From positions 32,984,001 through 33,048,000 of the forward strand of contig OX597835.1 of the NCBI GenBank assembly GCA_951406725.2: a stretch of DNA of 64,000 bases. Reading direction: 5' to 3'. The position numbers are program-made. The stretch is from Octopus vulgaris. Taxonomy: Eukaryota. Shown here piece by piece: positions 4,607-7,600 of this stretch. The stretch's first letter is position 1. Each line of letters starts with the position of its first letter.

Positions 4607-7600
4607 GTAATTAATCAATATAGGGTGGCAAAAAAAAAATTTTGTAGAATTCTTTTGCCACCAGCGGCCTAGTGGGAAAAAATTAAATAGTCATAAACTA
4701 TTTTTAAGTTCAACATCAACAATCAAGGAACGGCCATAATAGGCCATTCACCCACTAGAAATAACAGCCAAAAGCTTTAACCGCAAAATAACGTCAATTC
4801 CGTAAACCAGGAGAAAATTGAAAAACATTTACCATGTAATTTCTTAGACGATGCACCGTTTCATCTTCTGTTTAATGGAAAACTAACCTGATTAAATTAA
4901 ATCAAGCCAATCTACCATAGGCCCTTAGATTCATCAGTAAGAAATAGCCAAAACCGGAACAGATATTTTTCACGAGGCATTCTCATTGCTACCTCGTCAA
5001 TATCTGACCTAAAATTTTCAAATCGTCGCACTCGCGCCAAATTTATCGGCAGCAAATAAATATAAGCCGCCGATTCCATTACGGAATTAACCAGAAAATT
5101 CATAATTAATCAATATAGGGTGGCAAAAAAAAAAAAATTTTGTAGAATTCTTTTGCCACCAGCGGCCTAGTGGGAAAAAATTAAATAGTCATAAACTATT
5201 TTTAAGTTCAACATCAACAATCAAGGAACGGCCATAATAGGCCATTCACCCACTAGAAATAACAGCCAAAAGCTTTAACCGCAAAATAACGTCAATTCCG
5301 TAAACCAGGAGAAAATTGAAAAACATTTACCCTGTAATTTCTTAGACGATGCACCGTTTCATCTTCTGTTTAATGGAAAACTAACCTGATTAAATTAAAT
5401 CAAGCCAATCTACCAAAGGCCCTTAGATTCATCAGTAAGAAATAGCCAAAACCGGAACAGATATTTTTCACGAGGCATTCTCATTGCTACCTCGTCAATA
5501 TCTGACCTAAAATTTTCAAATCGTCGCACTCGCGCCAAATTTATCGGCAGCAAATAAATATAAGCCGCCGATTCCATTACGGAATTAACCAGAAAATTCA
5601 TAATTAATCAATATAGGGTGGCAAAAAAAAAAATTTTGTAGAATTCTTTTGCCACCAGCGGCCTTGGTAGATTGGCTTGATTTAATTTAATCAGGTTAGT
5701 TTTCCATTAAACAGAAGATGAAACGGTGCATCGTCTAAGAAATTACAGGGTAAATGTTTTTCAATTTTCTTCTGGTTTACGGAATTGACGTTATTTTGCG
5801 GTTAAAGCTTTTGGCTGTTATTTCTAGTGGGTGAATGGCCTATTATGGCCGTTCCTTGATTGTTGATGTTGAACTTAAAAATAGTTTATGACTATTTAAT
5901 TTTTCCCACTAGGCCGCTGGTGGCAAAAGAATTCTACAAAATTTTTTTTTTTTTTTTTTTTGCCACCCTATATTGATTAATTATGAATTTTCTGGTTAAT
6001 TCCGTAATGGAATCGGCGGCTTATATTTATTTGCTGCCGATAAATTTGGCGCGAGTGCGACGATTTGAAAATTTTAGGTCAGATATTGACGAGGTAGCAA
6101 TGAGAATGCCTCGTGAAAAATATCTGTTCCGGTTTTGGCTATTTCTTACTGATGAATCTAAGGGCCTATGGTAGATTGGCTTGATTTAATTTAATCAGGT
6201 TAGTTTTCCATTAAACAGAAGATGAAACGGTGCATCGTCTAAGAAATTACATGGTAAATGTTTTTCAATTTTCTCCTGGTTTACGGAATTGACGTTATTT
6301 TGCGGTTAAAGCTTTTGGCTGTTATTTCTAGTGGGTGAATGGCCTATTATGGCCGTTCCTTGATTGTTGATGTTGAACTTAAAAATAGTTTATGACTATT
6401 TAATTTTTTCCCACTAGGCCGCTGGTGGCAAAAGAATTCTACAAAATTTTTTTTTTTGCCACCCTATATTGATTAATTATGAATTTTCTGGTTAATTCCG
6501 TAATGGAATCGGCGGCTTATATTTATTTGCTGCCGATAAATTTGGCGCGAGTGCGACGATTTGAAAATTTTAGGTCAGATATTGACGAGGTAGCAATGAG
6601 AATGCCTCGTGAAAAATATCTGTTCCGGTTTTGGCTATTTCTTACTGATGAATCTAAGGGCCTATGGTAGATTGGCTTGATTTAATTTAATCAGGTTAGT
6701 TTTCCATTAAACAGAAGATGAAACGGTGCATCGTCTAAGAAATTACAGGGTAAATGTTTTTCAATTTTCTCCTGGTTTACGGAATTGACGTTATTTTGCG
6801 GTTAAAGCTTTTGGCTGTTATTTCTAGTGGGTGAATGGCCTATTATGGCCGTTCCTTGATTGTTGATGTTGAACTTAAAAATAGTTTATGACTATTTAAT
6901 TTTTTCCCACTAGGCCGCTGGTGGCAAAAGAATTCTACAAAATTTTTTTTTTTTTGCCACCCTATATTGATTAATTATGAATTTTCTGGTTAATTCCGTA
7001 ATGGAATCGGCGGCTTATATTTATTTGCTGCCGATAAATTTGGCGCGAGTGCGACGATTTGAAAATTTTAGGTCAGATATTGACGAGGTAGCAATGAGAA
7101 TGCCTCGTGAAAAATATCTGTTCCGGTTTTGGCTATTTCTTACTGATGAATCTAAGGGCCTATGGTAGATTGGCTTGATTTAATTTAATCAGGTTAGTTT
7201 TCCATTAAACAGAAGATGAAACGGTGCATCGTCTAAGAAATTACAGGGTAAATGTTTTTCAATTTTCTCCTGGTTTACGGAATTGACGTTATTTTGCGGT
7301 TAAAGCTTTTGGCTGTTATTTCTAGTGGGTGAATGGCCTATTATGGCCGTTCCTTGATTGTTGATGTTGAACTTAAAAATAGTTTATGACTATTTAATTT
7401 TTTCCCACTAGGCCGCTGGTGGCAAAAGAATTCTACAAAATTTTTTTTTTTTTTTTTTTTTTTTTTGCCACCCTATATTGATTAATTATGAATTTTCTGG
7501 TTAATTCCGTAATGGAATCGGCGGCTTATATTTATTTGCTGCCGATAAATTTGGCGCGAGTGCGACGATTTGAAAATTTTAGGTCAGATATTGACGAGGT

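What the first reader, a model, noticed from the sequence alone, without database searches (positions are those of the whole stretch)
5601..5745. Recurrent head-to-head, tails-out inversion in the HHR elements, suggesting two-ended priming
Seen: in family A (junction ~5660-5665, GGCCT microhomology, plus arm starting inside HHR stem II), family B (junction ~48991-48994, inside HHR stem III) and the fold-back at 10851-11411, the left arm is minus and the right arm plus relative to ribozyme sense. Both 3' ends therefore abut (TA)n. The fold-backs at 32982 and 59451 look the same. Established: Penelope insertions often carry inverted pLTR segments. Inference: both ends of a break in (TA)n prime reverse transcription on a circular or multimeric RNA and the two cDNAs are joined. 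Plain tandem retrozyme models do not predict this inversion, so it would be a mechanistic signature. Read-through would also form kb-long dsRNA hairpins (ADAR/siRNA substrates).
Basis: partly seen in the sequence, partly recalled or inferred. Interest (0 to 1): 0.8.

Follow-up and report, generated by a model that had tools for sequence, protein, structure and literature searches.

The report
Inverted arms in ribozyme repeat arrays
Tandem repeats carrying hammerhead-ribozyme motifs sit in TA microsatellites with a shorter upside-down copy at their head end, which is the known insertion scar of Penelope-like retrotransposons and not a new kind of element.

Summary
Family A (498-nt unit) and family B (481-nt unit) are tandem arrays. 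Each has a shorter inverted arm on its left and is flanked by (TA)n. Three smaller loci (10.8k, 33.0k, 59.5k) are fold-backs of the same shape. All 4 inverted loci that can be oriented are head-to-head with tails out. None is tail-to-tail. The 33k locus cannot be oriented.

The hammerhead motifs pass my own descriptor scan (12 hits against 0 in controls). Rfam calls none of them.

The architecture is already described for Penelope-like elements (PLEs): an inverted 5'-truncated copy at the 5' end, partial tandems, (TA)n targets and a one-sided tail (PMC8557442). A PLE endonuclease remnant lies at 46856-47105.

A 13-nt target-site duplication encloses the whole 33k fold-back, so the inversion formed at insertion.

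Outer ends are defined termini that recur in independent loci. Inner junctions vary and often sit on self-complementary sequence.

Two-ended priming fits these facts and matches published in-vitro PLE data (PMC11167929). cDNA snap-back fits almost as well. Classical single-RNA twin priming does not fit.

Verdict: a new member of a known kind, of moderate interest.

The parts
4541..4606 (.). (AT)n flank left of family A
   Evidence: TRF; TA runs
4608..5664 (-). Family A inverted (minus-sense) arm, 2.1 units of 498 nt. Its outer end at 4608 is the 'Q-type' terminus ...gattaatta|
   Evidence: BLAST of the unit; boundaries; termini
5660..5664 (.). Family A inversion junction. GGCCT is shared by both arms and its GGCC core is self-complementary
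5660..7876 (+). Family A sense arm, 4.4 units. Its outer end at 7876 lies 14 nt after CCTTGATTGTT ('E-type' terminus)
7875..7983 (.). (AT)n flank right of family A
6141..6247 (+). Type-I hammerhead-like motif of family A: stem I 8 bp, CUGAUGA, 68-nt stem II, GAAA, 4-bp stem III, cut after GUC. Further copies on + at 6637-6743, 7135-7241 and 7646-7752, and on - at 5443-5337 and 4945-4839
   Evidence: descriptor scan; fold; no Rfam hit
48153..48359 (.). (AT)n flank left of family B
48342..48997 (-). Family B inverted arm, 1.35 units of 481 nt. Its outer end lies in the unit's own CTCTATATATAAA motif and its inner end lies inside hammerhead stem III
48994..51105 (+). Family B sense arm, 4.4 units. 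Its outer end lies 15 nt after CCTTAATTGCT
51098..51281 (.). (AT)n flank right of family B
49339..49386 (+). Type-I hammerhead-like motif of family B. Further copies on + at 49820-49867, 50301-50348 and 50782-50829, and on - at 48544-48497
   Evidence: weak Rfam HH9 match, 16.6 bits, E=0.044
10845..11059 (-). 10.8k locus, inverted arm of a B-like element, outer end in (TA)7
11072..11415 (+). 10.8k locus, sense arm with a degenerate hammerhead core (CTGAGGA...GAAA). It ends at the same unit position as B, 15 nt after CCTCAATTGTT
32968..32980 (.). Left copy of the 13-nt target-site duplication TATATATTTATTT around the 33k insertion. The right copy is at 33236-33248
   Evidence: 39 of 5000 random segments of the same size share a word of 13 nt or more in their flanks
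32981..33083 (.). 33k insertion, inverted arm. Sense cannot be assigned
33093..33235 (.). 33k insertion, longer arm, with a 'tail' of about 36-41 nt beyond the point where the other arm ends. The 14-nt palindrome TCTGATATATCAGA lies at the inner end of each arm
59451..59520 (-). 59.5k fold-back, inverted arm (limits approximate). Its outer end corresponds to the 3' terminus of element C
59534..59686 (+). 59.5k fold-back, sense arm (limits approximate). It runs about 85 nt beyond the end of the other arm to (TA)24
63226..63608 (+). Element C: a single, non-inverted copy with a hammerhead-like motif at 63415-63475, lying between (TA/TG)n and (TA)11
13355..13388 (+). Solo 26-36-nt fragment of family A. 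It ends at the same nucleotide (+-1) as the outer end of A's inverted arm and is followed by (TA)14
29996..30011 (+). Solo fragment carrying the E-type terminal motif CCTCAATTGTTGAAAT, followed by (TA)15
46856..47105 (+). 5'-truncated remnant of a Penelope-like element ORF: the C-terminal GIY-YIG endonuclease with a CxxC just upstream
   Evidence: Pfam PF01541, 24.7 bits against a cut-off of 22.6; relatives; sequence

Best explanation
Families A, B and C and their fragments are short non-coding retroelements with type-I hammerhead motifs. They are animal 'non-LTR retrozymes', that is, non-autonomous passengers of Penelope-like elements. They were inserted into TA-rich microsatellite DNA by target-primed reverse transcription. 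The upside-down arm at the head end is the standard PLE 'inverted 5'-truncated copy' and was made during integration, not afterwards.

My preferred mechanism is inferred, not shown. Both DNA ends of the cut target prime cDNA synthesis on copies of a multimeric transcript. The downstream end starts at a family-conserved site (E-type, 14-15 nt after CCTYRATTGYT). The upstream end starts at a second, UA-rich site (Q-type, 9-18 nt after CCCT). The two minus-sense cDNAs are then joined head to head where their 3' ends can pair, often on self-complementary sequence: GGCC in A, a 14-nt palindrome at 33k, a 12-nt palindrome at 10.8k. One cDNA is then copied to complete the duplex.

I put about 0.8 on the general statement (a PLE-type, integration-coupled inversion). 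I put about 0.45 on the two-ended priming step. The confidence number given is for that step.
For: Shown:
- 4 of 4 orientable inverted loci are minus-left and plus-right. None is tail-to-tail in the window.
- 7 of 10 outer ends abut a perfect (TA)>=6 run, although such runs cover only 4.4% of the window.
- A 13-nt direct repeat encloses the whole 33k fold-back. Only 39 of 5000 random segments do as well.
- The arms of the older loci have diverged: 2 mismatches in 215 nt at 10.8k, 94.7% at 33k, 90.9% at 59.5k. These structures are therefore old and real.
- Outer termini recur in independent events. The B and 10.8k elements are only 78-83% alike and have different inner junctions, yet they share both outer ends.
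- The outer end of A's inverted arm recurs to +-1 nt in a solo fragment at 13355-13388.
- The outer end of the 59.5k inverted arm matches the 3' end of the simple element C.
- The E-type motif occurs 15 times against 0.24 expected. All hits are in A, B, 10.8k and a solo fragment that abuts (TA)15.
- The family A unit has only two CC[CT]T sites in sense. Both outer ends lie 14 and 18 nt after them.
- A PLE endonuclease remnant lies in the window.

From the literature (passages read):
- PLE insertions often carry an inverted 5'-truncated copy at the 5' end, a one-sided 30-40-bp tail and (TA)n targets (PMC8557442).
- A PLE protein cleaves and extends both strands and initiates internally on the RNA (PMC11167929).
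- Retrozymes are proposed to be non-autonomous PLE derivatives (bioRxiv 10.64898/2026.07.22.740005, abstract and passages).
Against: - In 5 of 5 loci the inverted arm is shorter than the sense arm and its content is contained in it. In 3 of 5 the two arms start within about 9-12 nt of the same template position. Snap-back predicts this directly. Two-ended priming needs a shared pause site or palindrome to explain it.
- Q-type ends are UA-rich. Their recurrence could reflect microhomology with (TA)n in any model.
- The terminal motifs were defined after looking at the ends, so they are post hoc.
- Four of four gives only p=0.0625 (my arithmetic).
- The hammerhead sense rests on my descriptor. 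Rfam does not call the motifs.
- The variant pattern in A does not decide what the arms were copied from. The best register gives 2 mismatches in 1035 nt, with poly-T lengths 11=11 and 13=13 but 10 against 26.
- One element (C), two solo termini and the PLE remnant have no inverted arm, so the inversion is frequent but not obligatory.
- Only one 64-kb window was available. No reads and no other genomic copies could be examined.
Confidence: 0.45

Rival explanations
1. Single-ended target-primed reverse transcription followed by cDNA snap-back. The first cDNA, primed at the downstream end, stops. Its 3' end folds back or switches onto the nascent cDNA at a short, often self-complementary, homology. 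It copies that cDNA for a stretch, and the new 3' end is joined to the upstream (TA)n by microhomology.
For: - In 5 of 5 loci the inverted arm is shorter than the sense arm and contained in it.
- 3 of 5 loci are hairpins with spacers of 12, 9 and about 11 nt and palindromic centres.
- The GGCC core at A's junction is self-complementary.
- A's inverted arm matches the sense arm in one register with 2 mismatches in 1035 nt and two equal poly-T lengths.
- Snap-back junctions that give upstream antisense copies are documented for R2-protein-mediated insertion in human cells (PMC11371274, passages read).
Against: - The outer end of the inverted arm should then be arbitrary. Instead it coincides with termini used by independent simple insertions: A with the solo fragment at 13388, 59.5k with the end of C, and B with 10.8k.
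- Microhomology with (TA)n can partly explain this coincidence, but it does not explain the CCCT at a fixed distance.
- B's inverted arm has 2 private substitutions while three sense units are identical to each other. This difference is not significant.
Confidence: 0.3
2. DNA-level rearrangement after insertion. A break or a stalled fork at the fragile (TA)n leads to fold-back priming or microhomology-mediated template switching, which duplicates part of the array in inverted orientation.
For: - (TA)n flanks every array.
- A's junction has 5 nt of microhomology.
- In A, an inverted duplicate lies with a 751-nt spacer and near-identical register.
Against: - Orientation relative to the ribozyme sense should be random, yet 4 of 4 loci are head-to-head.
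- The 13-nt target-site duplication abuts the outer end of the inverted arm at 33k. This is expected if the inversion formed during insertion.
- The outer ends of the inverted arms fall at recurrent element termini.
- The same architecture is a known feature of PLE insertions in many genomes (PMC8557442).
Confidence: 0.12
3. Assembly artefact. The junctions in the young arrays A and B could be fold-back chimeras of long reads or a mis-joined repeat.
For: The arms of A and B are 99.7-99.8% identical. PMC8557442 notes that such structures cause assembly problems. No reads could be examined.
Against: - The junctions are asymmetric and are not perfect palindromes. In A, unit position 255 is joined to position 2. 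In B, position 374 is joined to position 1.
- Each arm has private variants.
- Three older loci of the same shape have diverged arms, so the structure class is genuine.
Confidence: 0.05
4. Classical L1-type twin priming on one RNA molecule. The second DNA end primes internally on the same RNA, so the inverted piece is the RNA segment just upstream of the direct piece.
For: The overall shape fits: inverted 5' piece, direct 3' piece, target-site duplication at 33k and microhomology in A.
Against: - The model predicts non-overlapping arms. In the three monomeric loci the inverted arm is a copy of the inner part of the direct arm.
- In A and B the start of the direct arm does not follow the outer end of the inverted arm. 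The unit positions are 2 against 318, and 1 against about 63.
Confidence: 0.03

Closest known systems
Penelope-like element insertion architecture: pLTR partial tandems with an upstream inverted 5'-truncated copy, a one-sided tail and microsatellite targets (PMC8557442)
   Same: Tandem units, a shorter inverted copy at the head end, (TA)n flanks, hammerhead motifs in the repeated part, and a one-sided extension of about 36-41 nt at 33k.
   Different: The elements here carry no RT or EN ORF. No ORF of 110 aa or more overlaps the arrays. The one-sided extension is 83-125 nt in B, 10.8k and 59.5k, not 30-40 bp.
Metazoan non-LTR retrozymes (PMC7229834; bioRxiv 10.64898/2026.07.22.740005)
   Same: AT-rich, non-coding tandem repeats of a few hundred nt, each with a type-I hammerhead motif.
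   Different: The word 'inverted' occurs 0 times in the main text of the first paper and once, in an unrelated reference title, in the second. I did not see their supplements. Units here are 481-498 nt, and family A has a 68-nt stem II.
L1 twin priming (Ostertag and Kazazian 2001; seen only as a reference in PMC11371274 and recalled)
   Same: Both DNA ends act as primers. The product is an inverted 5' piece joined to a direct 3' piece inside one target-site duplication.
   Different: The arms here overlap in content, so they do not come from adjacent parts of one RNA.
cDNA snap-back at 5' junctions of R2-protein-mediated insertions (PMC11371274)
   Same: An antisense copy lies upstream of the sense copy and is templated by the cDNA itself.
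   Different: That system uses a different retroelement clade and engineered templates in human cells. It does not predict defined outer termini for the antisense copy.
In-vitro PLE reaction (PAc of Anolis, PMC11167929)
   Same: Both strands are cleaved and extended, the targets are AT-rich, and reverse transcription starts internally and not at the RNA 3' end.
   Different: That work describes an AC-rich stem-loop start site in an autonomous vertebrate element. In the passages I read it does not link both-strand extension to inverted copies.

Membership tests
Hammerhead ribozyme, type I | Conserved core CUGANGA ... GAAA ... UH with three helices in the type-I order (stem I open) | tested here: met
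   Descriptor scan. There are 12 hits with stem I >=5, stem II >=4 and stem III >=4 bp (A x6, B x5, C x1), against 0 in the reversed sequence and 0 in 50 simulations. The descriptor was written from recalled knowledge of the core.
Hammerhead ribozyme, type I | Match to a curated Rfam hammerhead covariance model at gathering score | tested here: not met
   No hit at gathering score or at E<=10 over 3.3-3.7 kb. B alone gives HH9 at 16.6 bits against 52, E=0.044. C gives none.
Hammerhead ribozyme, type I | Self-cleavage | not testable with these tools
   The minimum-free-energy folds form stems I and II but not stem III. This is typical of the short helix III described for metazoan motifs that act as dimers (PMC4209133).
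Metazoan non-LTR retrozyme | Non-coding tandem repeats, each with a type-I hammerhead, low GC and no LTR | tested here: met
Metazoan non-LTR retrozyme | Expression as self-cleaved, circularised RNA | not testable with these tools
   No transcript data were available.
PLE-type insertion | Inverted 5'-truncated copy adjacent to the 5' end of the unit | tested here: met
   All 5 inverted loci have a shorter arm at one end. In the 4 that can be oriented, that end is the head end.
PLE-type insertion | Microsatellite, especially (TA)n, target | tested here: met
   7 of 10 outer ends abut (TA)>=6. The 33k target-site duplication is TA-rich.
PLE-type insertion | 30-40-bp tail at one end only | tested here: inconclusive
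   33k has about 36-41 nt. B, 10.8k and 59.5k have 83-125 nt.
PLE-type insertion | RT plus GIY-YIG ORF in the element | tested here: not met
   The arrays are non-coding. Only a separate EN remnant exists, at 46856-47105. The elements would therefore be non-autonomous.
L1-type twin priming product | The inverted and direct pieces derive from adjacent, non-overlapping parts of one RNA | tested here: not met
   The arms overlap fully in 3 of 3 monomeric loci. The registers do not abut in A and B.
Snap-back product | The antisense copy is contained in, and collinear with, the adjacent sense copy | tested here: met
   5 of 5 loci. This does not exclude two-ended priming.

The most novel reading that the evidence does not exclude
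The arrays may preserve in-vivo footprints of an asymmetric two-ended integration by Penelope-like machinery. The downstream DNA end would start cDNA at one family-conserved RNA site (14-15 nt after CCTYRATTGYT). The upstream end would start at a second site (9-18 nt after CCCT). The two cDNAs would be joined at self-complementary sequence. This would explain the long-unexplained inverted copy and one-sided 'tail' of PLE insertions. It would also show that hammerhead retrozymes share the 3'-end signals of their autonomous partner.
Probability: 0.3. Interest if true: 0.6.

Novelty: new member of a known kind. Interest (0 to 1): 0.4.

Why it matters
The way Penelope-like elements integrate is still called 'undefined' in the literature, including how they make tandem and inverted copies (PMC8557442). 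Young, nearly error-free arrays such as A and B have exact junctions and recurrent termini. They give testable footprints: two kinds of outer terminus, and inner joints on self-complementary sequence. They also tie hammerhead 'retrozymes' to PLE machinery by architecture as well as by sequence. For annotation, such arrays should be called PLE-dependent non-autonomous elements. Their inverted arms are potential long hairpin transcripts and a known source of assembly trouble.

Tried and rejected
- Rfam at gathering score, at E<=10 and on short stretches. The only hammerhead hit was the sub-threshold HH9 match to B. The other listed hits are microRNA models matching (TA/TG)n and are spurious.
- Classical twin priming was rejected on arm overlap.
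- Rolling-circle copying of a monomeric circle. The monomers of A differ in order (poly-T 20, 11, 13, 26; two substitutions), and an alternating two-type pattern fails at unit R4. It is not supported.
- Using private variants to decide what the inverted arm was copied from. This was inconclusive in A (two competing registers) and in B (2 private changes in 655 nt against 1 in 2112 nt, not significant).
- Hammerhead cleavage site as the common stop of both cDNAs. At 10.8k the centre lies about 60-70 nt upstream of the cleavage site, so this was rejected.
- A word-indexed search of the GIY-YIG ORF against longer proteins found nothing. The exhaustive search did find relatives.
- Similarity between the 3' UTR of the PLE remnant and families A, B or C: none by BLAST.
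A genome-wide census and related loci from elsewhere therefore stayed unchecked.
- Supplements of the papers cited were not opened.
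Full report
**What is there**

The window is AT-rich (GC about 0.28-0.42 per 2 kb). It has no N and is crowded with microsatellites. There are 93 perfect (TA)>=6 runs, covering 4.4% of the bases.

Two long tandem arrays stand out. Family A has a 498-nt unit and family B a 481-nt unit.

- Family A. 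BLAST of one unit against the window and the repeat finder show a minus-sense arm at 4608-5664 (2.1 units). It is joined at 5660-5664 to a plus-sense arm at 5660-7876 (4.4 units).
- Family B. A minus-sense arm at 48342-48997 (1.35 units) is joined at 48991-48997 to a plus-sense arm at 48994-51105 (4.4 units).
- Both arrays lie between (AT)n tracts.
- A's joint shares GGCCT between the two arms. B's joint shares about 1 nt.

Three smaller loci have the same shape.

- 10845-11059 / 11072-11415 is a 78-83% relative of B.
- 32981-33083 / 33093-33235 has no relative in the window.
- 59451-about 59520 / about 59534-59686 is related to the tail of a single element, C, at 63226-63608.

**Ribozyme sense**

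Rfam does not call a hammerhead anywhere. There is nothing at gathering score and nothing at E<=10 over the two arrays. A 76-nt search of B gives Hammerhead_HH9 at 16.6 bits against a gathering score of 52, E=0.044. Family C gives nothing.

I wrote a descriptor from recalled knowledge of the core: CUGANGA, stem II, GAAA, stem III closed by A-U, H, stem I. It finds 12 motifs at stem I >=5, stem II >=4 and stem III >=4 bp. These are A x6 (4 plus, 2 minus), B x5 (4 plus, 1 minus) and C x1. It finds none in the reversed sequence and none in 50 first-order Markov simulations.

A's motif has a 68-nt stem II. The minimum-free-energy folds give stems I and II but not the short stem III. This agrees with the description of metazoan type-I motifs as having a weak helix III with a palindromic loop and acting as dimers (PMC4209133, passages).

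The 10.8k element has a degenerate core (CTGAGGA...GAAA) that my descriptor did not pick up. Its sense follows from homology to B. The sense assignment is therefore reasonable, but ribozyme activity is untested.

**Orientation and shape**

Of the five inverted loci, four can be oriented: A, B, 10.8k and 59.5k. All four are minus on the left and plus on the right, that is, heads together and tails out. The 33k locus cannot be oriented. No tail-to-tail pair of these families exists in the window.

Four of four gives only p=0.0625 by my arithmetic. The result does agree with the literature, discussed below.

In 5 of 5 loci the inverted arm is the shorter one and its content is contained in the other arm. 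Three of the five are hairpins, with spacers of 12, 9 and about 11 nt.

Not every insertion is inverted. Element C, two solo end-fragments and a PLE remnant have no inverted partner.

**The inversion formed at insertion**

The whole 33k fold-back, including its one-sided extension of about 36-41 nt, is enclosed by the 13-nt direct repeat TATATATTTATTT (32968-32980 and 33236-33248). Only 39 of 5000 random segments of the same size share a word of 13 nt or more in their 25-nt flanks.

The arms of the three small loci have diverged: 2 mismatches in 215 nt at 10.8k, 94.7% over 228 nt at 33k, and 90.9% over 154 nt at 59.5k. The structure class is therefore old and genuine, not an assembly artefact.

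For the young arrays A and B, three things argue against chimeric reads. The joints are asymmetric: unit position 255 to 2 in A, and 374 to 1 in B. Each arm has private variants. The older loci show the same shape. I could not inspect any reads.

**Outer ends are defined; inner joints are not**

B and the 10.8k element are only about 80% alike and have different inner joints. Yet their sense arms end at the same unit position (...ccttaattgctaaat| and ...cctcaattgttaaac|). Their inverted arms also end in the same internal CTCTATA(TA)-rich motif.

The pattern CCTYRATTGYT occurs 15 times against 0.24 expected. The hits are in every A unit, every B unit, the 10.8k element and one extra site at 29996-30011. 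That extra site is a solo fragment directly followed by (TA)15. A, B and 10.8k sense arms all end 14-15 nt after this motif. I call this the 'E-type' end.

The inverted arms end 9-18 nt after a CCCT ('Q-type' end).

- A's Q end (...gattaatta|) recurs to +-1 nt in a solo 26-36-nt fragment at 13355-13388 followed by (TA)14.
- The Q end at 59.5k corresponds to the 3' end of the simple element C.
- The A unit has only two CC[CT]T sites in sense, and the two outer ends lie 14 and 18 nt after them.

These motifs were defined after looking at the ends, so they are leads and not tests.

Inner joints sit on self-complementary sequence in three loci. These are GGCC in A, the 14-nt palindrome TCTGATATATCAGA at the inner end of each 33k arm, and ATAAATATTTAT at 10.8k. 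B's joint does not.

**Context**

ORF 46719-47105 (+) matches Pfam GIY-YIG at 24.7 bits against a cut-off of 22.6. Its residues 43-127 align to the C-termini of proteins of 500-784 aa (159 hits at E<=1e-10). I picked six of the 150 listed hits. All six show GIY-YIG at E<=2e-4, five of them above the cut-off. Three also show RVT_1 at E<=2e-5, one of them above the cut-off.

This ORF is therefore the 3' end of a 5'-truncated Penelope-like element. A CxxC lies just upstream of the GIY-YIG core.

No ORF of 110 aa or more overlaps the arrays. They are non-autonomous.

**Literature**

[quoted passage not shown] It calls the underlying mechanism undefined.
- PMC11167929 (passages read) shows that a PLE protein cleaves and extends both DNA strands in vitro and starts reverse transcription internally on the RNA. 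In the passages I read, it does not connect this to inverted copies.
- PMC7229834 (term search of the main text) describes animal retrozymes and never uses the word 'inverted'.
- The bioRxiv preprint 10.64898/2026.07.22.740005 (abstract and passages) uses 'inverted' only in an unrelated reference title. I did not open the supplements of either retrozyme paper.
- PMC11371274 (passages read) documents cDNA snap-back. It gives antisense copies upstream of the sense copy in R2-protein-mediated insertions.

**Mechanism**

Classical twin priming on one RNA is contradicted, because the arms overlap where that model predicts adjacent segments.

Two models remain. One is two-ended priming on separate template copies, with the two cDNAs paired at self-complementary microhomology. 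The other is single-ended priming with snap-back.

- Containment of the inverted arm and the hairpin geometry favour snap-back.
- The recurrence of the inverted arms' outer ends at sites that independent simple insertions also use as 3' termini favours two-ended priming. So does the consistent E-type and Q-type asymmetry, and so does the in-vitro both-strand extension.
- Microhomology of the UA-rich Q sites with (TA)n blurs this distinction.

I prefer two-ended priming at about 0.45. I give snap-back 0.3, a post-insertional DNA-level fold-back 0.12, an artefact 0.05 and classical twin priming 0.03.

Nothing in the window calls for a circular template. A's ordered monomer variants argue against rolling-circle copying of a single circle.

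The long complementary arms would form hairpins if transcribed through. They are 1035 nt with a 751-nt loop in A, and 651 nt or 546 nt in B. Transcription, editing and small RNAs are untested.

**Verdict**

The architecture is the known PLE insertion scar, seen here on hammerhead retrozyme arrays. The two-ended model is plausible and now has specific predictions that a census could test. This window alone does not establish it.

Noticed in passing
46856-47105 (+), within ORF 46719-47105: 5'-truncated remnant of a Penelope-like element: the C-terminal GIY-YIG endonuclease with an upstream CxxC. It starts right after a TA/CA microsatellite and has no inverted partner.
   Followed up: yes
13355-13388 (+) and 29996-30011 (+): Solo end-fragments of family A (Q-type end) and of the B/10.8k family (E-type end). 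Each is followed directly by (TA)n but preceded by non-TA sequence. They may be extreme 5' truncations. They also raise the question of whether part of the (TA)n is added at initiation and was not already present in the target.
   Followed up: partly
43085-43500 and 43555-43674: An element of about 415 nt between (TA)18 and (TA)27 has a weak hammerhead-like motif on the minus strand (43278-43193, stem I only 3 bp). A partial inverted copy of its head end lies across the (TA)27. The arm identity is low: about 75% over 262 nt including the TA tract. It may be another head-to-head case with (TA)n as the spacer.
   Followed up: partly
9473-9983, 29026-29514, 30133-30577, 32491-32969 (-), 44903-45425, weaker at 17507-17964 (-): A dispersed repeat of about 450-500 nt (66-92% between copies) with an internal or terminal TA/CA microsatellite. 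From recall it resembles a cephalopod (octopus) SINE-like repeat. This was not tested.
   Followed up: no
57543-57804: Two tandem 131-nt units (81% alike) begin with a tRNA-like sequence and look like a SINE head. ARAGORN calls no tRNA in the window.
   Followed up: no
13061-13365 / 13455-13763 and 53517-54050 / 54149-54671: Local direct duplications, 98% over 309 nt and 84% over 534 nt.
   Followed up: no
48165-48307, 7872-8024 and other (TA/TG)n tracts: Rfam microRNA models (mir-297, mir-3149, mir-1277, mir-466) match the microsatellites below gathering score. These are low-complexity false leads.
   Followed up: yes
A units, poly-T tract at unit position about 286-311: The homopolymer length differs between neighbouring units: 20, 11, 13 and 26 in the sense arm, and 11, 13 and 10 in the inverted arm. 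The cause could be slippage or homopolymer error in the assembly.
   Followed up: partly
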